Shown here: positions 1 through 60,515 of the stretch, piece by piece
How positions within the stretch are numbered: the stretch's first letter is position 1
Layout: each line of letters begins with the position of its first letter
Source: Escherichia coli
Lineage (GTDB): Bacteria; Pseudomonadota; Gammaproteobacteria; Enterobacterales; Enterobacteriaceae
NCBI RefSeq assembly: GCF_036507355.1
Contig: NZ_AP027877.1
DNA length: 64,000 nucleotides
Direction: 5' to 3' (one strand)
Translations under genes and position numbers: made by a program
The notes under the pieces: model-generated
Database searches by the model: none
The model's input: the letters and a program-made list of their open reading frames with translations, nothing else
Told to the model about the DNA's origin: nothing

Positions 1-2045
1 GCTTCTTCGGTATCCTGCTCGATAAACTCAGTAATGCCTTTGACCAACGAGTATTCCAGACGTTTATTCACTTCCCACGAGCGCCACTCCGCCTGCTGGG
101 CGTTAGCGGTGTCGTCGGTTTTGCTGCCGCGATATTTCTCGGCAAGCTCCAGTAAACGCTCGGTGCCATCATCGCGACGGTTGAGGATCACATCCTCCAC
201 CGCGTCGCGCAGTTCAGCGGGCAGGTCGTCGTAAATCGCCAGTTGCCCGGCGTTGACAATCCCCATATCCATGCCGTTGCGGATGGCGTAGTAGAGGAAC
301 ACCGCGTGAATAGCTTCGCGCACCGGATCGTTGCCACGGAACGAGAACGAGACGTTAGAGACGCCGCCGGAAATTAGCGCGTGCGGCAGTTCGCGTTTGA
401 TGTCTTCACACGCGCCGATAAAGTCCTGCGCGTAGTTATTGTGCTCTTCAATGCCGGTGGCAACCGCGAAGATGTTCGGGTCGAAGATGATATCTTCTGG
501 CGGGAAGCCAACCTCTTCGGTGAGGATGTTGTACGCCCGACGGCAAATCTCGATTTTCCGTGCGCGGGTATCGGCCTGCCCCTGTTCGTCAAAGGCCATT
601 ACCACCACTGCCGCACCGTAACGACGCAACAATTTCGCGTGATGGATAAAAGCGTCGACGCCCTCTTTCATCGAGATAGAGTTAACAATGCCTTTGCCCT
701 GGATACACTTCAGACCTTTTTCAATGACATCCCATTTTGAGGAGTCGATCATAATCGGCACGCGAGCGATATCCGGTTCACCGGCAATCAGATTGAGAAA
801 ACGCACCATCGCCGCTTCGGCATCGAGCATCCCTTCATCCATGTTGATATCGATAATCTGCGCGCCGTTTTCCACCTGCTGACGCGCTACATCCAGCGCC
901 TCGCTGTATTTCTCTTCTTTGATCAGGCGCTTGAACTTAGCGGAACCGGTGACGTTGGTGCGTTCACCCACGTTCACAAACAGGCTATCTTCGCCAATGT
1001 TCAGCGGCTCCAGGCCGGACAAACGGCAGGCTACGGGGATTTCCGGCAGTTTGCGCGGCGCTAATCCTTCTACTGCACGACTCATCGCTGCAATATGTTG
1101 TGGCGTGGTGCCACAGCAGCCGCCGACGATATTGAGAAAACCCGCTTGCGCCCATTCACGTATCTGTTTTGCCATCGTGTCGGCGTCGAGATCGTACTCA
1201 CCAAAGGCGTTGGGTAGCCCGGCGTTCGGGTGCGCGGTGACGTAGCATTCCGCAATCCGTGACAGCTCCTGCACGTACTGGCGCAGTTCATCTGGCCCCA
1301 GCGCACAGTTCAGGCCAAAGGTCAGCGCTTCGGCGTGGCGCAATGAGTTGTAAAATGCTTCGGTGGTCTGCCCGGAGAGCGTGCGCCCGGAGGCGTCGGT
1401 GATGGTGCCGGAGATCATAATCGGCAGCTCAACGCCCAGCGCTTCAAACTCCGTTTTCACCGCAAAAACCGCCGCTTTGGCGTTAAGGGTGTCGAAAACG
1501 GTTTCAATCAGGATCAGATCCGCACCACCTTCCACCAGCGCTTTGGTGGATTCGCGATAGGCCGCCACCAGCTGGTCAAAAGTGATGTTGCGGAATGCCG
1601 GATCGTTGACGTCCGGAGAAATAGACGCCGTGCGGTTGGTCGGGCCGAGAACACCGGCAACGTAGCGCGGTTTCTCTGGCGTGCGCGCGGTCCACTCATC
1701 AGCACAGGCGCGCGCCAGTTTCGCCGCCGCAAAGTTGATTTCCGCCGACAGGGATTCCATCTGGTAATCCGCCATCGCAATGGTCGTGGAGTTGAAGGTG
1801 TTGGTTTCGATGATATCCGCACCCGCTTCAAAGTAGGCGTTGTGGATAGCGGCGATCACTTCCGGTTTACTGAGTACCAGCAGGTCGTTGTTGCCTTTGA
1901 GGTCGCATGGCCAGTCGGCAAAGCGTTCACCACGAAAATCGGCTTCGTTCAGTCGATAGCTCTGGATCATGGTGCCCATACCGCCGTCCAGCACCAGAAT
2001 ACGTTCATTTAACTGCGCACGCAGTTGTTCCACTTTGCTGCTCAC
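1..2045 (-). CDS. metH: Methionine synthase (B12-dependent), N-terminal ~680 codons; 3' part lies beyond window start
   Basis: Reverse-complement of window start translates to [39 protein letters not shown]; reverse-complement near 2045 gives [15 protein letters not shown] with GTG start. Open to window edge so absent from ORF track. Confidence 0.88.
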
Positions 2046-4837: not shown

Positions 4838-4969
4838 GCCGGATGCGGCGTAAACGCCTTATCCAGCCTACGTTCGGCAACGGTTGTAGGCATGATAAGA
4901 CGCGCAAGCGTCGCATCAGGCATCGTGCACCGATTGCCGGATGCGGCGTAAATGCCTTATCCGGCCTAC
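4838..4969. repeat. REP/BIME cluster: three REP units (4838-4871, 4886-4921 inverted, 4936-4969) in aceA-aceK intergenic
   Basis: Two copies of gccggatgcggcgtaaa(c/t)gccttatcc(a/g)gcctac flank an inverted gtaggcatgataagacgcgcaagcgtcgcatcaggc unit; classic REP palindromes. Confidence 0.85.
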
Positions 4970-4992: not shown

Positions 4993-6297
4993 TTAGAACT
5001 GCGATTCTTCAGTGGAGCCGGTCAGCGCGGTGACTGAAGACGTGCCGCCCTGAATAATGGTCGTCACTTTATCGAAGTAACCTGTACCCACTTCCTGCTG
5101 GTGAGATACGAAGGTGTAGCCATCTTTCGCGGCGGCGAATTCCGGCTGCTGCACTTTCTCAACATAGTGCTTCATACCCTCGCCCTGGGCATAGGCGTTT
5201 GCCAGGTCAAACATGTTGAACCACATGCTGTGGATACCTGCCAGGGTGATGAACTGGAACTTGTAGCCCATATCCGACAGCTGCTGCTGGAAGCTGGCAA
5301 TAGTGTTGTCGTCGAGGTTTTTCTGCCAGTTGAACGACGGCGAGCAGTTATAAGCCAGCAGTTTGCCCGGATATTTCGCGTGGATGGCTTGTGCAAAGCG
5401 ACGCGCCAGTTCCAGATCCGGCGTGGAGGTTTCACACCATACCAGGTCAGCATATGGCGCATACGCCAGGCCACGGCTGATCGCTTGCTCAATGCCCGCA
5501 TGAGTACGGAAGAAGCCTTCACTGGTACGCTCGCCGGTAATAAATTCGCTGTCATACGGGTCGCAATCGGAGGTAATCAGATCCGCCGCATCGGCATCGG
5601 TACGAGCAACCAGTAGGGTTGGAACGCCCGTCACGTCAGCTGCCAGACGCGCCGCGACCAGTTTCTGAATAGCTTCTTGAGTTGGCACCAAAACTTTGCC
5701 GCCCATGTGACCGCATTTCTTCACTGACGCCAGCTGATCTTCGAAGTGAACTGCCGCTGCACCGGCTTCAATCATCGCTTTCATCAGTTCAAAGGCATTC
5801 AGGACACCGCCAAAACCGGCTTCCGCATCGGCAACGATCGGCAGGAAGTAATCGACATAGCGCGGATCGCCCGGCTCAATGCCCGCGGACCATTGGATCT
5901 GATCCGCACGGCGGAAAGTATTGTTGATCCGCTCCACCACCGCTGGCACCGAGTTCGCCGGGTAGAGCGACTGATCCGGATACATGCTGGCCGCCAGGTT
6001 AGCGTCCGCCGCTACCTGCCATCCCGACAGATAGACCGCTTCAATACCCGCTTTCGCCTGTTGCAGCGCCTGACCGCCAGTCAATGCACCGAGGCTGTTG
6101 ATGTAGCCTTTTTTCGACTCGCCATGCAGCAGACGCCACATTTTCGCCGCGCCCAGTTGCGCCAGCGTGCATTCAGGATTGACTGAACCGCGTAATTTCA
6201 CCACATCTTCCGCGCTGTATGGGCGAGTAATGCCTTCCCAACGCGGTTGAGTCCACTCTTTCTGTAATTCTTCAATTTGTTGTGTACGGGTTTTCAT
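4993..6297 (-). CDS. aceA: Isocitrate lyase (434 aa)
   Basis: ORF 4993..6312 contains [39 protein letters not shown]; start taken at MKTRTQQ (ATG 6295-6297 minus). Confidence 0.94.
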
Positions 6298-10247: not shown

Positions 10248-10367
10248 ATGCCTGGCAGTTCCCTACTCTCGCATGGGGAGACCCCACACTACCATCGGCG
10301 CTACGGCGTTTCACTTCTGAGTTCGGCATGGGGTCAGGTGGGACCACCGCGCTACGGCCGCCAGGCA
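10248..10367 (-). rRNA. rrfE: 5S ribosomal RNA
   Basis: Reverse-complement is the canonical E. coli 5S sequence (TGCCTGGCGGCCGTAGCGCGGTGGTCCCACCTGACCCCATGCCGAACTCAG...CATGCGAGAGTAGGGAACTGCCAGGCAT), 120 nt. Confidence 0.97.
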
Positions 10368-10460
10368 AATTCTGTTTTATCAGACCGCTTCTGCGTTCTG
10401 ATTTAATCTGTATCAGGCTGAAAATCTTCTCTCAATCCGCCAAAACAGCTTCGGCGTTGT

Positions 10461-13363
<2,903 letters not shown>

Positions 13364-13556
13364 TCACAACCCGAAGATGTTTCTTTCGATTCATCATCGT
13401 GTTGCGAAAATTTGAGAGACTCACGAACAACTCTCGTTGTTCAGTGTTTCAATTTTCAGCTTGATCCAGATTTTTAAAGAGCAAATATCTCAAACATCAC
13501 CCGAAGATGAGTTTTGAGATATTAAGGTCGGCGACTTTCACTCACAAACCAGCAAG

Positions 13557-13632
13557 TGGCGTCCCCTAGGGGATTCGAACCCCTGTTACCGCCGTGAAAG
13601 GGCGGTGTCCTGGGCCTCTAGACGAAGGGGAC
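13557..13632 (-). tRNA. gltV: tRNA-Glu (UUC) in 16S-23S spacer
   Basis: Reverse-complement GTCCCCTTCGTCTAGAGGCCCAGGACACCGCCCTTTCACGGCGGTAACAGGGGTTCGAATCCCCTAGGGGACGCCA, 76 nt. Confidence 0.96.
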
Positions 13633-13717
13633 GTATCAGTCTGCTTCGCAAGACGCCTTGCTTTTCACTTTCTATCAGACAATCTGTGTGAGCACTACAA
13701 AGAACGCTTCTTTAAGG

Positions 13718-15259
<1,542 letters not shown>

Positions 15260-27826: not shown

Positions 27827-27879
27827 GTTCTGCGCTGTTAACGCGTAATTTACATTCAACGCCCCGTTTGTGGGGGCTA

Positions 27880-29954
<2,075 letters not shown>

Positions 29955-32294: not shown

Positions 32295-33424
32295 AAACCT
32301 TCAGCGATCGCTGGCGACAACTGGACTGGGACGACATCCGCCTGCGTATCAACGGCAAAACGGCTGCTGACGTAGAGCGGGCGCTAAATGCCTCGCAACT
32401 CACCCGCGACGACATGATGGCGCTGTTATCGCCTGCCGCCAGTGGCTATCTGGAACAACTGGCCCAACGGGCGCAGCGTCTGACCCGTCAGCGATTTGGC
32501 AACACAGTTAGTTTCTACGTCCCGCTTTATCTTTCCAATCTTTGCGCTAACGACTGCACGTACTGCGGATTTTCCATGAGTAATCGCATCAAGCGCAAAA
32601 CGCTGGACGAAGCGGATATTGCCAGGGAAAGCGCCGCTATACGGGAGATGGGCTTTGAACATCTGCTTTTAGTCACTGGTGAACATCAGGCGAAAGTGGG
32701 GATGGATTACTTTCGTCGTCATCTCCCTGCCCTGCGTGAACAGTTCTCTTCACTACAGATGGAAGTGCAACCGCTGGCGGAGACGGAATACACCGAGTTA
32801 AAGCAACTTGGTCTGGATGGGGTGATGGTTTATCAGGAGACATATCACGAGGCGACTTATGCCCGCCATCATCTGAAAGGCAAAAAACAGGACTTCTTCT
32901 GGCGGCTGGAAACGCCGGATCGGCTGGGGCGTGCGGGGATTGATAAGATTGGCCTCGGCGCACTAATTGGCCTTTCCGACAACTGGCGAGTTGACTGTTA
33001 TATGGTTGCCGAACATTTGCTATGGCTGCAACAGCATTACTGGCAAAGCCGCTACTCTATCTCCTTCCCGCGCCTGCGCCCATGTACTGGCGGCATTGAG
33101 CCTGCGTCGATTATGGATGAACGCCAGTTAGTGCAAGCCATCTGCGCCTTCCGGCTGCTTGCACCGGAGATTGAACTGTCACTCTCCACGCGGGAATCAC
33201 CGTGGTTTCGCGATCGCGTTATTCCGCTGGCGATCAATAACGTCAGCGCCTTCTCGAAAACGCAGCCAGGTGGCTATGCCGATAATCACCCCGAGTTGGA
33301 ACAGTTCTCACCGCACGACGATCGCAGACCGGAAGCGGTTGCTGCCGCGTTAACCGCTCAGGGTTTGCAGCCGGTATGGAAAGACTGGGACAGCTATCTG
33401 GGACGCGCCTCGCAAAGACTATGA
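32291..33424 (+). CDS. thiH: 2-iminoacetate synthase, radical SAM (377 aa)
   Basis: ORF translation [33 protein letters not shown]... with radical-SAM motif CANDCTYC. Confidence 0.94.
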
Positions 33425-33790
33425 GACGGAATGTAAGGACGTAAATTTATTCCGAGCCGCTACGGAAGATGAAAAACGCAAGGTTGTTGAAAGCGTTGTG
33501 TTTTTTTATGGTAGTGCCGTCAGCAGGAATGTTGTCCAGGGCGAAAAGCTTCTTCCTCGTTTCGCCCTGCCTTTCTTAAAAATTCCGTAATGCAAAGTCT
33601 GAAGCCATCGCCTGTTGAGCAATGAAAGAGATCTGATTGTAAGAGAGTAAATACTCAACTATGATAGAGACGAAAATAAGAACACATGTTCTCATCTTCC
33701 AGGATGCAGCAGACTGAAGAAATTCAGACATCCCGCAACCTGCGATTATCGCAAGGTCAAGGCAAAGTCCGGTAATGGCGTTCTGAATAC

Positions 33791-33840
33791 CAGAGATAAT
33801 TCTCTGGCGAAACCCACCTTAAGGTGGGTTTTGTTATTTT
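33791..33840 (+). terminator. Tandem hairpins with plus-strand intrinsic-terminator signature at 3' end of thiH-htrC intergenic
   Basis: ccagagataattctctgg hairpin followed by aaacccaccttaaggtgggttttgttatttt (stem plus T-run on plus strand); overlaps htrC stop on the opposite strand. Confidence 0.5.
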
Positions 33841-34373
33841 GAGGGCTGAGGAAGCTGCTTATTTCTCAATAAGTTGTAGGCAATGGTGAAAAATTTCACT
33901 GATTTACCTTTCTGTTTTTCAGAAATGGGATAAGCGCTAGTTACATGCAAACGAAGTTTTTTCTTTTCCCTGAAAGCCCTGAACGCAACAAAGTAAAATG
34001 CCTTGTCTCCTCCGTTTAAATCCACTTCAATCACGGCATAGCTACCATACCCAGCATGAATAACGTTGCTTTCTGGCAGCGCCAAAATGGTTCTTTTTAA
34101 GTGTATGCGCGCTAAGTTATAACGGTGCTGGCAGAAGGGACGAGATTCTTTAGGCGCGTGGTACATTAACGATTGTTTTTCTTCGTTAGTCTGATGTTCA
34201 TAATCTTTTGTGAAGCAGTGAAGAGAGTAGGTAACCCAGAAGCGATACTCTAAAGGCTCTTTGCCCTCATGATGCTGAACGTAGACAGCCTGATGAGCAT
34301 CAAGAAATGATAAATCACGAATATCACCATCCGGATGTCCAAAAGGTCGCCACTTCTCCACTTCCTGTTTCAT
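33834..34373 (-). CDS. htrC: Heat-shock protein HtrC / YjaZ (179 aa)
   Basis: ORF translation MKQEVEKWRPFGHPDGDIRDLSFLDAHQAVYVQHHEGKEPLEYRFWVTYSLHCFTKDYEHQTNEEKQ...; immediately downstream of rpoC. Confidence 0.85.
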   Translation of the reverse strand: MKQEVEKWRPFGHPDGDIRDLSFLDAHQAVYVQHHEGKEPLEYRFWVTYSLHCFTKDYEHQTNEEKQSLMYHAPKESRPFCQHRYNLARIHLKRTILALPESNVIHAGYGSYAVIEVDLNGGDKAFYFVAFRAFREKKKLRLHVTSAYPISEKQKGKSVKFFTIAYNLLRNKQLPQPSK

Positions 34374-34537
34374 TCTCGTTCCTTAAGAAAGTCACACAGG
34401 AATAGTATCGAATTCTTGCCGAGCTTGACTCAATTAGTTCAGTCAGTTTCAGGATATTAGTCATCTCTACATTGATTATGAGTATCCAGAAATTCATTAA
34501 ATATTCTGACAAATGCTCTTTCCCTAAACTCCCCCCA

Positions 34538-34566
34538 TAAAAAAACCCGCCGAAGCGGGTTTTTAC
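34538..34566 (-). terminator. rpoBC operon terminator
   Basis: Minus-strand AAACCCGCTTCGGCGGGTTTTTTTATGG, 20 bp past rpoC stop. Confidence 0.8.
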
Positions 34567-34585
34567 GTTATTTGCGGATTAACGA

Positions 34586-37500
34586 TTACTCGTTATCAGA
34601 ACCGCCCAGACCTGCGTTCAGCAGTTCTGCCAGGCTGGCAGATGCGTCTTCTGCAGTCACCTGCGGTGCAGCCGGAGCTTCACCCGCAGCACGGCGACGC
34701 ATACGATCCTGGTGGTACGCGTAACCGGTACCTGCCGGGATCAGACGACCCACGATAACGTTCTCTTTCAGGCCGCGCAGTTCGTCGCGTTTGCCCGCAA
34801 CGGCTGCTTCGGTCAGCACGCGAGTGGTCTCCTGGAACGATGCCGCGGAGATGAAGGACTCGGTTGCCAGAGACGCTTTGGTGATACCCAGCAGATCGCG
34901 GGAGTAAGTTGCACCCACTTTGCCGTTCGCTTCCAGTTCGCGGTTTGCGATCTTGACGCGAGAGTATTCAACCTGTTCGCCTTCCAGGAAGTCGGAGCTG
35001 CCCGCGTTAACGATGGTAGCTTTACGCAGCATCTGACGAACGATAACTTCGATGTGTTTATCGTTAATCTTAACGCCCTGCAGACGGTATACGTCCTGTA
35101 CTTCGTTAACGATGTAACGAGTCACAGCATGAACACCACGCAGACGCAGAATGTCGTGCGGCGCTTCCGGACCGTCGGAAATTACGTCACCACGTTCTAC
35201 ACGTTCACCTTCGAACACGTTGAGCTGACGCCATTTCGGAATCATCTCTTCGTACGGATCGCTACCGTCTACCGGGGTGATAACCAGACGACGTTTACCT
35301 TTGGTTTCTTTACCGAAGGAAACGATACCGCTGATTTCAGCCAGGATTGCCGGCTCTTTCGGACGACGTGCTTCGAACAGGTCCGCAACGCGCGGCAGAC
35401 CACCGGTGATGTCCTTGGTACCGCCGGATTCCTGCGGAATACGCGCCAGGGTGTCACCAGAGCTGATCTGTACGCCATCTTCCAGCTGAACAATCGCTTT
35501 ACCCGGCAGGAAGTACTGCGCAGGCATATCGGTACCAGGGATCAGAACGTCGTTACCCTGAGCATCAACGATTTTCAGTGCCGGACGCAGATCTTTACCA
35601 CCTGCGGTACGTTCTGCGGAATCCAGAACCACCAGCGAAGACAGACCGGTCAATTCGTCGGTCTGACGCGTAATGGTCTGGCCGTCGATCATGTCAGTAA
35701 AGCGTACAAAACCGCTTACTTCGGTGATAACCGGCATGGTGTGCGGGTCCCAGTTTGCAACGGTTTCGCCGCCAGCAACCTGTTCGCCATCGCCTTTTGC
35801 CAGTACCGCACCGTAAGGTACTTTGTAGCTTTCTTTGGTACGACCGAATTCGTCGATCAGTTTCAGTTCGGTGTTACGGGAAGTGATAACCAGTTTACCG
35901 CTGGAGTTCACAACCGACTTCACGTTGCTGAGCTTGATGCTACCTTTGTTTTTCACCTGGATGCTGGATTCAGCAGCCGCACGAGATGCCGCACCACCGA
36001 TGTGGAACGTACGCATGGTCAGCTGTGTACCCGGTTCACCGATGGACTGTGCCGCGATAACACCGATTGCTTCACCCTTGTTGATGATGTGGCCACGCGC
36101 CAGGTCACGACCGTAGCAGTGCGCACATACACCAAAGTCGGTGTCACAAGATACAACAGAACGTACTTTAACCGCGTCGACAGAGTTCTCTTCCAGCAGG
36201 TCACACCACTGTTCGTGCAGCAGCGTGTTGCGCGGAACGAGGATATCAGCAGTACCCGGCTTCAGAACGTCTTCAGCAGTTACACGACCCAGTACGCGAT
36301 CGCGCAGCGGCTCTTTAACGTCACCACCCTCGATAACCGGAGTCATCATGATACCTTCATGGGTACCACAATCGTCTTCGGTAACCACCAGGTCCTGCGC
36401 CACGTCAACCAGACGACGAGTCAGGTAACCGGAGTTCGCAGTTTTCAGTGCGGTATCCGCCAGACCTTTACGAGCACCGTGGGTGGAGATGAAGTACTGG
36501 AGTACGTTCAGACCTTCACGGAAGTTCGCGGTGATTGGCGTTTCGATGATGGAGCCATCCGGCTTCGCCATCAGACCACGCATACCAGCAAGCTGACGAA
36601 TCTGTGCCGCAGAACCACGCGCACCGGAGTCGGCCATCATGTAGATGCTGTTGAAGGAAACCTGCTTCTCTTCCTGACCGTCACGGTTAATAACGGTTTC
36701 AGTTTGCAGATTATCCATCATCGCTTTGGATACACGATCGTTCGCCGCAGCCCAGATATCGATAACTTTGTTATAACGTTCGCCCGCAGTTACCAGACCA
36801 GACTGGAACTGCTCCTGAATTTCAGCAACTTCTGCTTCTGCCTCGGAGATGATTTCGTGTTTCTTCTCCGGGATGACCATGTCATCGATACCAACAGATG
36901 CACCAGAACGCGCTGCATATGCAAAGCCGGTGTACATGATCTGGTCCGCAAAAATAACGGTCGGTTTCAGACCGAGAATGCGGTAGCAGGTGTTCAGCAT
37001 TTTGGAGATTGCTTTTTTACCCAGCGCCTGGTTGACGATGGAGTAAGGCAGACCTTTCGGTACAATCATCCACAGAATGGCACGGCCAACGGTCGTGTCT
37101 TTCAGGCTGGTTTTCGCTACTAATTCACCGTTAGCATCTTTTTCATACTCGGTGATACGCACTTTAACGCGCGCATGCAGAGAAGCCAGACCAGAGCGAT
37201 ACAGACGTTCTGCTTCTTTCGGGCCAGTCAGCACCATGCCTTCGCCTTTGGCGTTAACACAGTCACGGGTCATGTAGTACAGACCCAGTACAACGTCCTG
37301 AGACGGAACGATGATTGGTTCGCCGTTCGCCGGGGACAGGATGTTGTTGGTAGACATCATCAGCGCACGCGCTTCCAGCTGGGCTTCCAGCGTCAGCGGT
37401 ACGTGAACAGCCATCTGGTCACCATCGAAGTCGGCGTTATATGCCGCACAAACCAGCGGGTGCAGCTGGATAGCTTTACCTTCGATCAGTACCGGTTCAA

Positions 37501-43160: not shown

Positions 43161-43194
43161 CGCAAAAAGGCTGGTGACTAAAAAGTCACCAGCC
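43161..43194 (-). terminator. rplL-rpoB intergenic attenuator hairpin
   Basis: Minus-strand GCTGGTGACTTTTTAGTCACCAGCCTTTTTGCG; a second hairpin cagcctgatttctcaggctg lies at 43196-43215, just after rplL. Confidence 0.7.
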
Positions 43195-43233
43195 ATCAGC
43201 CTGATTTCTCAGGCTGCAACCGGAAGGGTTGGC

Positions 43234-52115: not shown

Positions 52116-52235
52116 ATGCCTGGCAGTTCCCTACTCTCGCATGGGGAGACCCCACACTACCATCGGCGCTACGGCGTTTCACTTCTGAGTTCGGCATGGG
52201 ATCAGGTGGGACCACCGCGCTACGGCCGCCAGGCA
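52116..52235 (-). rRNA. rrfB: 5S ribosomal RNA
   Basis: Canonical 5S sequence on minus strand; differs from the rrfE copy at one position (gggatcagg here, ggggtcagg in rrfE). Confidence 0.97.
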
Positions 52236-52328
52236 AATTCTGTTTTATCAGACCGCTTCTGCGTTCTGATTTAATCTGTATCAGGCTGAAAATCTTCTCT
52301 CAATCCGCCAAAACAGCTTCGGCGTTGT

Positions 52329-55231
<2,903 letters not shown>

Positions 55232-55424
55232 TCACAACCCGAAGATGTTTCTTTCGATTCATCATCGTGTTGCGAAAATTTGAGAGACTCACGAACAACT
55301 CTCGTTGTTCAGTGTTTCAATTTTCAGCTTGATCCAGATTTTTAAAGAGCAAATATCTCAAACATCACCCGAAGATGAGTTTTGAGATATTAAGGTCGGC
55401 GACTTTCACTCACAAACCAGCAAG

Positions 55425-55500
55425 TGGCGTCCCCTAGGGGATTCGAACCCCTGTTACCGCCGTGAAAGGGCGGTGTCCTGGGCCTCTAGACGAAGGGGAC
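55425..55500 (-). tRNA. gltT: tRNA-Glu (UUC) in 16S-23S spacer
   Basis: Same 76-nt tRNA-Glu sequence as in rrnE. Confidence 0.96.
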
Positions 55501-55585
55501 GTATCAGTCTGCTTCGCAAGACGCCTTGCTTTTCACTTTCTATCAGACAATCTGTGTGAGCACTACAAAGAACGCTTCTTTAAGG

Positions 55586-57127
<1,542 letters not shown>

Positions 57128-60149: not shown

Positions 60150-60390
60150 TAAAGCATCCACAATAGAAGAAGGATGCCGCAGGTTTCATCAATATTACGC
60201 GATGATGAGAACCAGATGCGACGTTGGCCGGCAGGTCTTCGGGCTTGGAGGGGTATCTAAGATACTAAGAGATGATGACTTCCCACCGAATGGCAGTGTC
60301 CGCATAACGCAATCATCGCACCTTTCCTTACCGCTGCGCGTCAGCTCCAGATTCGCACTGGATTCCCTATTAACTCACAGGACCGGCAAG
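60150..60390 (-). promoter_or_regulatory. Cobalamin (AdoCbl) riboswitch in btuB leader
   Basis: Minus-strand leader contains the B12-box AAGCCCGAAGACCTGCCGGCC and upstream GGTGCGATGATTGCGTTATGCGGACACTGCCATTCGGTGGGAAGTCATCATC elements ahead of the btuB start. Confidence 0.85.
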
Positions 60391-60515
60391 TGGATGCTAC
60401 AGGTTGTAACAAGTTACTGTCCAGACGTAGCTCACAAATAGGAATTCATCAAGATCTGGACATCTGATGAGCAATCCCTACAATCGCCGCGTACTTTAAT
60501 TTTTCAGGATACATC

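What the first reader, a model, noticed from the sequence alone, without database searches (positions are those of the whole stretch)
33425..33840. 410-bp thiH-htrC intergenic region with tandem hairpins and a plus-strand terminator: candidate small RNA
The gap is long for this gene-dense region and has no convincing ORF. At its 3' end, two hairpins (ccagagataattctctgg, then aacccaccttaaggtgggtt followed by ttgttatttt) form an intrinsic-terminator signature on the plus strand, ~380 bp after the thiH stop and overlapping the htrC stop on the other strand. That fits either the thiCEFSGH operon terminator or the 3' end of an independent small RNA; an sRNA named SroH has been reported in this interval in K-12, as far as I recall.
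Basis: partly seen in the sequence, partly recalled or inferred. Interest (0 to 1): 0.3.

Follow-up and report, generated by a model that had tools for sequence, protein, structure and literature searches.

The report
SroH small RNA, partnered with YjaZ
The hairpins are the 3' end of the already annotated E. coli small RNA SroH, but comparison across bacteria shows that this RNA is a conserved, pseudoknotted molecule that nearly always travels with the neighbouring unknown-function gene yjaZ as a mobile two-gene unit, which makes its 20-year-old unknown function testable.

Summary
Window 33672..33832 (+) is sroH: Rfam RF00372 at 201 bits, identical to K-12 b4691, with the same geometry. It has its own sigma-70 promoter (33637..33665). 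Its terminator (33808..33840) overlaps the yjaZ/htrC stop codon. It is not the thi operon terminator.

As a gene it is already known, but its function is not. Going further, I found that sroH and yjaZ form a 945-bp low-GC cassette (33589..34533) missing from about 31% of E. coli genomes. Every testable YjaZ homologue of at least 41% identity carries the same RNA. These come from plasmids, Aeromonas, Marinomonas, methanotrophs and many cyanobacteria, and the RNA lies convergently just past the stop codon in all but one.

The RNA has five covarying helices plus a covarying pseudoknot and invariant junctions: 97.5% of cells paired, 30 of 38 pairs with double changes. A more distant protein subfamily carries a co-diverged RNA. 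No third gene is conserved. RNA-only remnants exist, but protein-only loci were not seen.

My best reading, at about 40%, is an RNA-protein module in which SroH acts on YjaZ like an antitoxin. The RelE/ParE-like fold of YjaZ is inconclusive.

The parts
33471..33506 (+). First terminator-like hairpin with a U7 tail downstream of thiH. It is a candidate thiCEFSGH terminator and is not part of sroH.
   Evidence: MFE fold of 33415..33600. The region is kept in sroH-less genomes.
33537..33577 (+). Second terminator-like hairpin (GGGCGAAA/UUUCGCCC) with a CCUUUCUU tail. It is a candidate thi operon terminator.
   Evidence: It lies upstream of the cassette boundary at 33588/33589.
33589..34533 (.). 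945-bp sroH-yjaZ cassette holding the sroH promoter, sroH, yjaZ and the yjaZ upstream region. GC is 0.41 against 0.54-0.55 in the flanks. Cassette-free E. coli carry a filler of about 23 bp instead.
33637..33665 (+). sroH sigma-70-type promoter, TTGTAA-17 nt-TATGAT.
   Evidence: A comparable promoter scoring at least 9 of 12 lies upstream of the RNA in 31 of 43 homologous loci.
33672..33832 (+). sroH gene as annotated (161 nt). It is identical to K-12 b4691.
   Evidence: Rfam RF00372 at 201.1 bits. K-12 annotation and zero mismatches.
33672..33700 (+). 29-nt 5' leader with a small hairpin. It is lineage-specific: most cyanobacterial and several proteobacterial homologues start directly at P1.
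33702..33733 (+). Helix P1 (GGAUG 33702-33706 with CAUCC 33729-33733). It encloses the invariant junction CAGCAGA and hairpin P2 (33714-33718 with 33723-33727).
   Evidence: Covariation. P2 has 5 of 5 pairs with double changes. P1 changes to GAAUG/CAUUC and GGGUG/CACCC.
33710..33713 (+). 5' strand of the pseudoknot (CAGA). It pairs with UCUG at 33782..33785.
   Evidence: 98.8% of cells paired, and 2 of 4 pairs change on both sides (CCGA/UCGG in L050; CAGG/CCUG in six distant-subfamily RNAs).
33734..33780 (+). Long-range helix P3 (CGC 33734-33736 with GCG 33778-33780). It encloses hairpin P3a (33738-33744 with 33750-33757) and the invariant block GGC..CCGGUAAUG (33761-33777).
   Evidence: P3 has 3 of 3 pairs with double changes and is 100% paired.
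33781..33789 (+). Invariant linker UUCUGAAUA. It contains the 3' strand of the pseudoknot (33782-33785).
33790..33807 (+).
   Evidence: All 6 modelled pairs covary.
33808..33840 (+). Hairpin P5 plus U-rich tail. It abuts and overlaps the yjaZ stop codon on the other strand.
   Evidence: Poly(A) tails were mapped at the 3' end of the SroH primary transcript in K-12 (PMC5389530).
33834..34373 (-). yjaZ (htrC) CDS, 179 aa, PF27200 / NCBIfam NF007263. It is the protein partner of the module.
   Evidence: Linkage.

Best explanation
SHOWN: the element is sroH, an independently transcribed small RNA of about 161 nt, with its own sigma-70 promoter (33637..33665) and its own intrinsic terminator (33808..33840). 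SHOWN by comparative genomics: SroH is not a typical base-pairing sRNA. It is a compact structured RNA with helices P1, P2, P3, P3a, P4 and P5, a 4-bp pseudoknot, and invariant junctions CAGCAGA, GGUC.AGG..CCGGUAAAG and UUCUGAAUA. It is genetically coupled to the convergent gene yjaZ. The pair moves horizontally as a unit among plasmids and chromosomes of Gammaproteobacteria, Cyanobacteria and other phyla. RNA and protein diverge together, and no third gene is conserved. INFERRED, about 40% likely: SroH acts directly on the YjaZ protein rather than on mRNAs. It is made constitutively from a strong promoter, binds YjaZ through its invariant junctions, and holds it inactive. Because the RNA is short-lived (poly(A)-dependent turnover), losing the module or shutting off transcription would free YjaZ. 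That is an RNA-antitoxin/protein-effector module that stabilises plasmids or acts in defence. What YjaZ does biochemically is not established.
For: Identity: Rfam 201 bits, K-12 annotation and 100% identity, promoter, fold z = -5.6, and primary transcript, processed forms and 3' poly(A) in K-12 (PMC5389530). Coupling, from protein to RNA: all 35 testable genome loci with YjaZ of at least 41% identity, plus the plasmid loci, carry the RNA at 90-146 bits. It is convergent and starts 1-2 nt past the stop codon in every case but L042. A 2,462-bp ColE1-type plasmid has this pair as its only annotated cargo. At least 18 loci of a 26-37%-identity subfamily carry a diverged RNA of the same architecture at the same place. 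Coupling, from RNA to protein: 80 of 107 genuine, testable RNA copies in metagenome and viral contigs have YjaZ immediately 3' and convergent, and 11 more have fragments or displaced copies. In E. coli, sroH is in 3,739 genomes and yjaZ in 3,737 of 5,426. Structure: 97.5% of cells paired, 30 of 38 pairs changed on both sides, covariation score 0.518 against 0.170 for shuffles (0 of 500) and at most 0.104 for slid partners; the pseudoknot covaries. There are 78 G-U cells against 5 A-C cells, so the SroH strand is the folded one. Promoters are conserved in 31 of 43 loci. Antitoxin-like logic: there are 16 RNA-only or yjaZ-wrecked loci against 0 of 44 protein-only loci (Fisher p = 0.003). In RNA-only loci the yjaZ position is taken by ParE/RelB or DUF5615/DUF433 pairs. 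Distribution is patchy and plasmid-rich, with 560 plasmid records of which 288 are conjugative. No third gene is conserved. Within E. coli the RNA is more conserved than the protein gene.
Confidence: 0.42

Rival explanations
1. SroH is a required RNA subunit or cofactor of a YjaZ ribonucleoprotein, acting as scaffold, guide or substrate rather than as an inhibitor. The pair would carry out some cellular or plasmid function together.
For: It rests on the same coupling, co-divergence and invariant-junction evidence. The sroH deletion is viable. In some decayed loci the RNA degenerates together with yjaZ (L107, L131, L166).
Against: Several independent loci keep an essentially intact RNA after yjaZ was deleted or replaced. 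The reverse was never seen, 0 of 44. A cofactor with no partner should not outlast it preferentially.
Confidence: 0.2
2. SroH is a cis-acting antisense regulator of yjaZ. Convergent transcription and the shared, overlapping terminator would let SroH control yjaZ mRNA 3'-end formation, stability or read-through. This is the geometry of some type I toxin-antitoxin loci that overlap at their 3' ends.
For: The convergent arrangement, with the RNA 3' end 1-2 nt past (or overlapping) the stop codon, is kept in 42 of 43 strong loci and 80 RNA-anchored loci. The terminator hairpin is necessarily complementary between the two transcripts.
Against: Only about 30 nt overlap, yet about 100 nt of non-overlapping RNA is the most conserved and covarying part. 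In L042 the RNA lies upstream on the same strand. There is no cognate-specific complementarity to the yjaZ 5' region. YjaZ is a 179-aa soluble alpha/beta protein, not a small membrane peptide.
Confidence: 0.15
3. SroH is an ordinary trans-acting base-pairing sRNA that regulates unlinked mRNAs such as kbl, and its position next to yjaZ is incidental.
For: SroH bound kbl mRNA in a gel-shift test (PMC6172242). It was enriched in an Hfq PAR-CLIP (bioRxiv 10.1101/2020.06.29.178624). It rises in stationary phase (bioRxiv 10.64898/2025.12.22.696124).
Against: It is conserved with invariant blocks across phyla and always beside yjaZ. Its fold is pseudoknotted, with little free single strand. Overexpression gave no biofilm or motility phenotype (PMC4606813). 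It is not an established Hfq target. It is absent from about 31% of E. coli, so any core regulon role is dispensable.
Confidence: 0.1
4. The hairpins are the terminator or 3' UTR of the thiCEFSGH operon, and any short RNA is a processing product of that transcript.
For: They are on the same strand as thiH, and no gene lies between.
Against: A conserved promoter lies between them. Terminator-like hairpins lie closer to thiH. The hairpins belong to a cassette that is absent from genomes which keep the thi operon. The same RNA occurs on plasmids and in cyanobacteria with no thi genes nearby.
Confidence: 0.02

Closest known systems
SroH sRNA of E. coli K-12 (b4691; Rfam RF00372)
   Same: It is the same gene: 100% identical over 161 nt, with the same neighbours and spacing.
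   Different: There is no difference at this locus. The printed RF00372 consensus marks only a 6-bp terminator stem as paired, and its gathering score of 80 misses the Aeromonas and cyanobacterial homologues at 74 and 70 bits. The wider family, its multi-helix pseudoknotted fold and the link to yjaZ were not found in any paper searched.
Type III toxin-antitoxin systems (ToxIN, CptIN, TenpIN)
   Same: Both are two-component modules of a protein plus a non-coding RNA. Both RNAs are pseudoknotted, both are plasmid-borne with patchy distribution, and neither has a protein antitoxin. The family features come from the abstracts of PMC8860590 and PMC12283969.
   Different: There are no tandem repeats in the RNA. 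The RNA is convergent rather than upstream on the same strand. YjaZ matches no ToxN, AbiQ, CptN or TenpN model. Toxicity and binding are untested.
AvcID (RNA antitoxin AvcI with deaminase toxin AvcD)
   Same: It is a precedent for an RNA antitoxin inhibiting a protein effector that is not a ToxN-type RNase (abstract of PMC10511110).
   Different: The protein family is unrelated.
Type I toxin-antitoxin loci with convergent, 3'-overlapping genes (fst RNAI/RNAII of pAD1, txpA/RatA, bsrG/SR4; from my own knowledge)
   Same: Both have convergent transcription of a protein gene and a small RNA whose 3' ends or terminators overlap, and both are carried on mobile elements.
   Different: Those toxins are small hydrophobic peptides controlled by RNA-RNA pairing. 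YjaZ is a 179-aa soluble protein. The conserved part of SroH lies outside the overlap.
RelE/ParE-superfamily toxins (for YjaZ)

Membership tests
sroH RNA (Rfam RF00372 / E. coli b4691) | Matches the family covariance model above its gathering score, full length | tested here: met
   201.1 bits against 80, model positions 1-161 of 161, E = 2e-49.
sroH RNA (Rfam RF00372 / E. coli b4691) | Located between thiH and yjaZ, on the thiH strand, as in K-12 | tested here: met
   The geometry is identical: 247 nt from the thiH stop and 1 nt from the yjaZ ORF end. There are 0 mismatches to b4691.
sroH RNA (Rfam RF00372 / E. coli b4691) | Discrete transcript with its own 5' and 3' ends | not testable with these tools
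   Sequence signals are present: a promoter and a terminator hairpin. For K-12, primary and processed forms and 3' poly(A) are reported in PMC5389530. No expression data exist for this strain.
Intrinsic terminator of the thiCEFSGH operon | It is the first terminator downstream of thiH, with no promoter in between, and it is present wherever the operon is | tested here: not met
   Earlier terminator-like hairpins lie at 33471..33506 and 33537..33577. A promoter lies at 33637..33665. The hairpins are absent from about 31% of E. coli that keep thiH.
Type III toxin-antitoxin (ToxIN/CptIN/TenpIN) | The toxin belongs to the ToxN/AbiQ, CptN or TenpN endoribonuclease families | tested here: not met
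   No Pfam-A, PADLOC or PHROG match. The only matches are PF27200 (precomputed) and NCBIfam NF007263.
Type III toxin-antitoxin (ToxIN/CptIN/TenpIN) | The antitoxin RNA is an array of tandem repeats | tested here: not met
   Tandem Repeats Finder gave 0 rows in 33400..34600.
Type III toxin-antitoxin (ToxIN/CptIN/TenpIN) | The RNA gene lies upstream of the toxin on the same strand, separated by a terminator | tested here: not met
   It is convergent and downstream in 42 of 43 strong loci.
Type III toxin-antitoxin (ToxIN/CptIN/TenpIN) | A pseudoknotted RNA binds and inhibits the toxin protein | tested here: inconclusive
   The pseudoknot is supported by covariation. Binding and inhibition cannot be tested with these tools.
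Type I toxin-antitoxin | Small hydrophobic toxin peptide | tested here: not met
   YjaZ is 179 aa with a confident soluble alpha/beta model, pLDDT 87.
Type I toxin-antitoxin | The antitoxin RNA base-pairs with the toxin mRNA to block translation or trigger decay | tested here: inconclusive
   Only the terminator overlaps. Cognate and non-cognate 5'-region duplex energies are the same (-29.8 against -29.3 kcal/mol; median rank 18 of 38).
RelE/ParE toxin superfamily (YjaZ) | Sequence-profile membership (Pfam ParE_toxin, RelE, HigB and similar) | tested here: not met
   No Pfam hit at E <= 0.1. The profile search of PDB sequences found nothing relevant.
RelE/ParE toxin superfamily (YjaZ) | RelE/ParE fold | tested here: inconclusive
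RelE/ParE toxin superfamily (YjaZ) | Adjacent cognate protein antitoxin gene | tested here: not met
   YjaZ is the only ORF conserved across the 43 loci.
Hfq-dependent base-pairing sRNA | Established Hfq binding and a short conserved seed for mRNA targets | tested here: inconclusive
   Literature only. SroH was enriched in one Hfq PAR-CLIP but is described there as not an established Hfq target. One in-vitro target is reported, kbl. Conservation covers the whole structured core, not just a seed.

The most novel reading that the evidence does not exclude
SroH-YjaZ would be a previously unrecognised class of RNA-protein toxin-antitoxin or defence-type module. It would consist of a single, non-repetitive, pseudoknotted RNA of about 135 nt, transcribed convergently, that directly neutralises a protein effector of a new family (PF27200). 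It spreads by horizontal transfer across Gammaproteobacteria, Cyanobacteria and other phyla, and is abundant on clinical Enterobacteriaceae plasmids. The long-orphan E. coli sRNA SroH would then be its antitoxin.
Probability: 0.35. Interest if true: 0.75.

Novelty: already known. Interest (0 to 1): 0.45.

Why it matters
SroH has had no known function since it was first described, and the htrC heat-shock designation of yjaZ has been retracted (PMC11551758). The comparative result turns two orphans into one testable unit. If SroH works on YjaZ, E. coli K-12 carries an unrecognised RNA-protein module whose relatives sit on hundreds of Klebsiella, Enterobacter and Serratia plasmids, about half of the matching plasmids being conjugative, and in bloom-forming cyanobacteria. 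That bears on plasmid maintenance or defence. It would also add a new structured-RNA class with a defined protein partner. For annotation, the printed Rfam consensus for sroH pairs only the terminator stem, and its threshold misses distant members.

Tried and rejected
1. The thi operon terminator reading was rejected.
2. A small protein encoded in sroH was rejected. The 29-aa ORF at 33686..33775, and the ORF from the AUG inside P1, vary from 1 to 52 codons with shifting frames.
3. Base-pairing of SroH with the yjaZ 5' region got no support: there is no cognate preference.
4. A conserved third gene or protein antitoxin was not found.
5. YjaZ gave no match in a Pfam-A scan, PADLOC, PHROGs or a profile search of PDB sequences.
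7. The afdb50 fold library was unavailable.
8. No YjaZ was found in INPHARED phage genomes.
9. The simple terminator scan found nothing in the gap, although the hairpin is real.
10. Vogel 2003 and Hobbs 2010 are not held, and the paper cap stopped me reading the AvcID and AbiF papers.
11. Six of the 22 apparent orphan RNA loci were chance matches to the search pattern and were discarded.

Full report
WHAT IS THERE. The window is an E. coli chromosomal segment in the order rrnE, thiCEFSGH, sroH, yjaZ, rpoCB, rrnB, btuB, in reverse K-12 orientation. The thiH ORF ends at 33424 and the yjaZ (htrC) ORF, on the minus strand, has its low end at 33834, so the gap is 409 bp. P4 is ccagaga/tctctgg at 33790..33807. 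P5 is cgaaacccacc-ttaa-ggtgggttttg at 33808..33833. A U-rich tail runs to 33840, and the complement of the yjaZ TAA stop lies at 33834..33836. The stretch 33672..33840 folds far better than shuffles (-58.5 against -36.5 kcal/mol, z = -5.6). The simple terminator scan did not flag the site.

IDENTITY. Rfam RF00372 (sroH) matches 33672..33832 (+) over its full length at 201.1 bits, against a gathering score of 80. The K-12 reference annotates sroH (b4691) at the equivalent place: 1 nt from the yjaZ ORF end and 247 nt from the thiH stop. The window's copy has no mismatch to it, and the whole gap differs from K-12 at one base, 33438. A TTGTAA-17-TATGAT promoter at 33637..33665 ends 7 nt before the annotated 5' end. 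Published work on K-12 reports full-length and processed SroH and poly(A) tails at the 3' end of the primary transcript. It states that the function is unknown and cites a cell-envelope-stress phenotype for the deletion (PMC5389530). Other reports give one in-vitro mRNA partner, kbl (PMC6172242), no biofilm or motility effect on overexpression (PMC4606813), and accumulation in stationary phase (bioRxiv 10.64898/2025.12.22.696124). SroH is described as not an established Hfq target.

NOT THE THI TERMINATOR. Two terminator-like hairpins with U-rich tails lie much closer to thiH, at 33471..33506 and 33537..33577. They sit in the part of the gap that every E. coli genome keeps, whereas the sroH hairpins do not (see the next paragraph).

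AN INDEL CASSETTE. Of 5,420 E. coli genomes that match the gap, only 3,729 cover at least 80% of it. The rest match only about the first 162 bases. In such genomes thiH is followed after about 240 nt by rpoC, with neither sroH nor yjaZ. Alignment places the difference exactly: window 33589..34533 (945 bp) is replaced by a filler of about 23 bp, and the rpoC terminator is kept. The cassette has GC 0.41, against 0.55 for thiH and 0.54 for rpoC. It contains the sroH promoter, sroH, yjaZ and the yjaZ upstream region. sroH occurs in 3,739 and yjaZ in 3,737 of 5,426 genomes. The RNA gene is the more conserved of the two, at least 99% identical in 3,733 records against 477 for yjaZ. The absence of sroH from the B2, D and other lineages was noted before and interpreted as loss (PMC3318445).

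THE RNA TRAVELS WITH YjaZ FAR BEYOND E. COLI. YjaZ gave no hit in a Pfam-A scan, PADLOC or PHROGs. It is PF27200 / NCBIfam NF007263, named 'stationary phase growth adaptation protein', and its htrC designation has been retracted (PMC11551758). Its homologues are patchily spread. They include a plasmid-sized E. fergusonii contig, plasmids of Raoultella, Salmonella and Enterobacter, and chromosomes of Aeromonas, Oceanimonas and cyanobacteria. In those loci the Rfam sroH model finds a full-length match on the opposite strand, starting 1-2 nt after the stop codon. Scores are 112-144 bits on plasmids, 74 bits in Aeromonas and 70 bits in the cyanobacterium Waterburya. A scan of one genome per species returned 59 YjaZ-encoding loci. 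The exact 14-mer AGGATGCAGCAGAC recurs beside many of them.

I built a covariance model from 20 distinct sequences. It finds the RNA at 90-146 bits in all 35 testable loci whose YjaZ is at least 41% identical, and in the plasmid loci. The RNA is convergent and immediately downstream in all but L042, where it lies upstream on the same strand. The cassette-free E. coli locus is negative. A 2,462-bp ColE1-type plasmid whose only annotated gene is a YjaZ homologue also carries the RNA at 136 bits. htrC has been listed among ColE1 plasmid cargo genes (PMC5864857). With filters off, at least 18 loci of a distant YjaZ subfamily (26-37% identity; Pseudomonas, Klebsiella IncF plasmids, Vibrio, Erwinia, Pantoea) show a diverged RNA of the same architecture at the same place, with E from 1e-7 to 0.07. 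YjaZ-like genes occur in 560 plasmid records, 288 of them conjugative, and in no INPHARED phage. Across the 43 loci no other ORF is conserved.

THE REVERSE TEST. Searching metagenome and viral contigs for the invariant RNA core gave 126 matches. Eighty have YjaZ convergent and immediately 3', with a median offset of 135 nt. Eleven have fragments or displaced copies, and 13 lie too close to a contig end to tell. Of the 22 with room but no YjaZ, 6 are chance pattern matches and 16 are genuine RNA copies. Those 16 include yjaZ remnants, either the last 17 codons only or residues 1-26 fused to the C-terminus, and clean RNA-only sites. In four contigs the yjaZ position holds a ParE_toxin/RelB pair, and in one a DUF5615/DUF433 pair. 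An intact YjaZ without the RNA was seen in 0 of 44 protein-anchored loci, against 16 of 107 RNA-anchored loci without an intact YjaZ (Fisher p = 0.003). The two samples are anchored differently, and some orphan RNAs carry small degenerative changes.

A STRUCTURED, PSEUDOKNOTTED RNA. The family consensus has these elements:
- P1, GGAUG/CAUCC.
- An invariant junction, CAGCAGA.
- Hairpin P2.
- A long-range helix P3, CGY/RCG.
- Hairpin P3a, ACC..GGU.
- An invariant block, GGUC.AGG..CCGGUAAAG.
- An invariant linker, UUCUGAAUA.
- Hairpin P4.
- The terminator P5.

On the MAFFT seed alignment, 95.5% of cells pair, 17 of 34 pairs change on both sides, and the covariation score is 0.387. Shuffles give 0.155 and slid partners at most 0.09. 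On 43 model-aligned sequences the figures are 97.2%, 24 of 34 and 0.467. The junction CAGA is complementary to UCUG in the linker. L050 has CCGA/UCGG, and six distant-subfamily RNAs have CAGG/CCUG. With this pseudoknot included, 97.5% of cells pair, 30 of 38 pairs show double changes, and the score is 0.518 against 0.170 for shuffles (0 of 500) and at most 0.104 for slid partners. G-U cells outnumber A-C cells 78 to 5, so the folded strand is the SroH strand and not the yjaZ 3' UTR. A sigma-70-type promoter scoring at least 9 of 12 lies upstream in 31 of 43 loci. Its -10 ends either 6-8 nt before P1, or about 30-37 nt before it when a 5' leader is present, as in E. coli. An ORF starting at the AUG inside P1 is not conserved. 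The model-derived alignments lean towards the model structure, but the MAFFT-based counts already show the effect.

HOW IT MOST LIKELY WORKS. Two things are shown: SroH is an independent, structured RNA gene, and it forms an obligate, mobile, co-evolving pair with yjaZ. The rest is inferred. Conservation is concentrated in structured, non-overlapping parts and in invariant junctions. There is no cognate-specific complementarity to the yjaZ 5' region, and one locus breaks the convergent arrangement. For these reasons I think a direct RNA-protein interaction is more likely than antisense control.

Several features fit an antitoxin-like RNA holding a protein effector in check, which I rate at about 0.4. 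The module is rich on plasmids and patchy in distribution. It is the sole cargo of a tiny plasmid. It sits in places that otherwise hold type II toxin-antitoxin pairs. RNA-only loci exist while protein-only loci were not seen. The promoter is strong, and turnover depends on poly(A). Three points count against this reading: the K-12 sroH deletion is viable, toxicity and binding data are lacking, and the biochemical nature of YjaZ is unknown. The rivals are an RNP cofactor role (0.2), cis-antisense control through the shared terminator (0.15), an ordinary trans-acting sRNA (0.1) and the thi terminator (0.02).

COMPARISON WITH KNOWN SYSTEMS AND NOVELTY. The locus is a full member of the sroH family. 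It is not a member of the known type III toxin-antitoxin families: there are no repeats, the gene order differs, and the toxin family is unrelated. It is not a type I system either, because YjaZ is a large soluble protein. It may nevertheless work like a type III system. None of the papers holding 'yjaZ' (14) or 'htrC' with E. coli (30, 20 listed), nor the 12 on sroH, links the two genes or describes the wider RNA family. The search covers only open-access papers and bioRxiv.

VERDICT. The finding itself is an already known sRNA and is correctly interpreted. The added value is the SroH-YjaZ coupling and the RNA's conserved pseudoknotted fold. Together they make the function of both orphans directly testable.

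Noticed in passing
window 33589..34533: sroH and yjaZ form a 945-bp low-GC (0.41) cassette. About 31% of complete E. coli genomes lack it and carry a shared filler of about 23 bp between the thi terminators and the rpoC terminator.
   Followed up: yes
L002 2665..2687; L207 about 765..790: The filler in cassette-free genomes (GAAGAATTGCCCTCTGAATAACA) contains CTCTGAATAAC, which resembles SroH's invariant linker TTCTGAATACC. It could be a relic of an older deletion or a coincidence.
   Followed up: no
L206 1637..2334: One cassette-free E. coli genome has an IS1 element inserted in the short thiH-rpoC spacer.
   Followed up: partly
window 33471..33506 and 33537..33577: Two terminator-like hairpins with U-rich tails lie just after thiH. 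They are the likely thiCEFSGH terminators. The simple scan missed them, possibly because their loops are long.
   Followed up: partly
L042 1136..1365 (+), gene at 1501..2022 (+): In a Thiomargarita MAG the RNA (103 bits, with a large insertion) lies upstream of the YjaZ homologue on the same strand. It is the only exception to the convergent arrangement.
   Followed up: no
L157 3361..3392 and 5823..5854: A 6.9-kb metagenome contig at about 4,000x coverage carries two copies of the RNA core. It is probably a small multicopy plasmid, or a circular contig assembled with a repeat.
   Followed up: no
L141, L176: In these loci YjaZ lies about 1.4 kb from the RNA rather than about 135 nt, which suggests an insertion between the two genes.
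   Followed up: no
L082, L123, L181, L189 (about +190..+730 from P1); L178 (+161..+873); L127, L183 (+118..+1132): In RNA-only loci the yjaZ position is occupied by a ParE_toxin/RelB pair, a DUF5615/DUF433 pair, or an ORF that looks like a cytosine-5 DNA methyltransferase (the last was not checked against Pfam). This context looks like a hotspot for toxin-antitoxin and restriction-modification genes.
   Followed up: partly
L017 3560..3709; L015 3551..3713: The Rfam sroH model scores the cyanobacterial and Aeromonas homologues at 70 and 74 bits, below its gathering score of 80. Its printed consensus marks only a 6-bp terminator stem as paired. Routine annotation would therefore miss most of the family and its fold.
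   Followed up: yes
E. coli genomes: Within E. coli the 162-nt sroH is at least 99% identical to this window in 3,733 records. yjaZ reaches that level in only 477, and most copies are about 98% identical.
   Followed up: partly
PLSDB record NZ_OL790696.1: A 4.8-Mb 'plasmid' record that carries yjaZ at 98.9% identity is evidently a chromosome filed as a plasmid. It inflates plasmid counts for the E. coli-type allele.
   Followed up: no
window 27879..27979, 60213..60402, 4889..4966, 43168..43229, 10250..15259, 52118..57127: Other Rfam matches in the window: a TPP riboswitch ahead of thiC, a cobalamin riboswitch (btuB leader), naRNA4, a P26 match in the ribosomal-protein region, and two complete rRNA operons with StyR-44 matches.
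   Followed up: no
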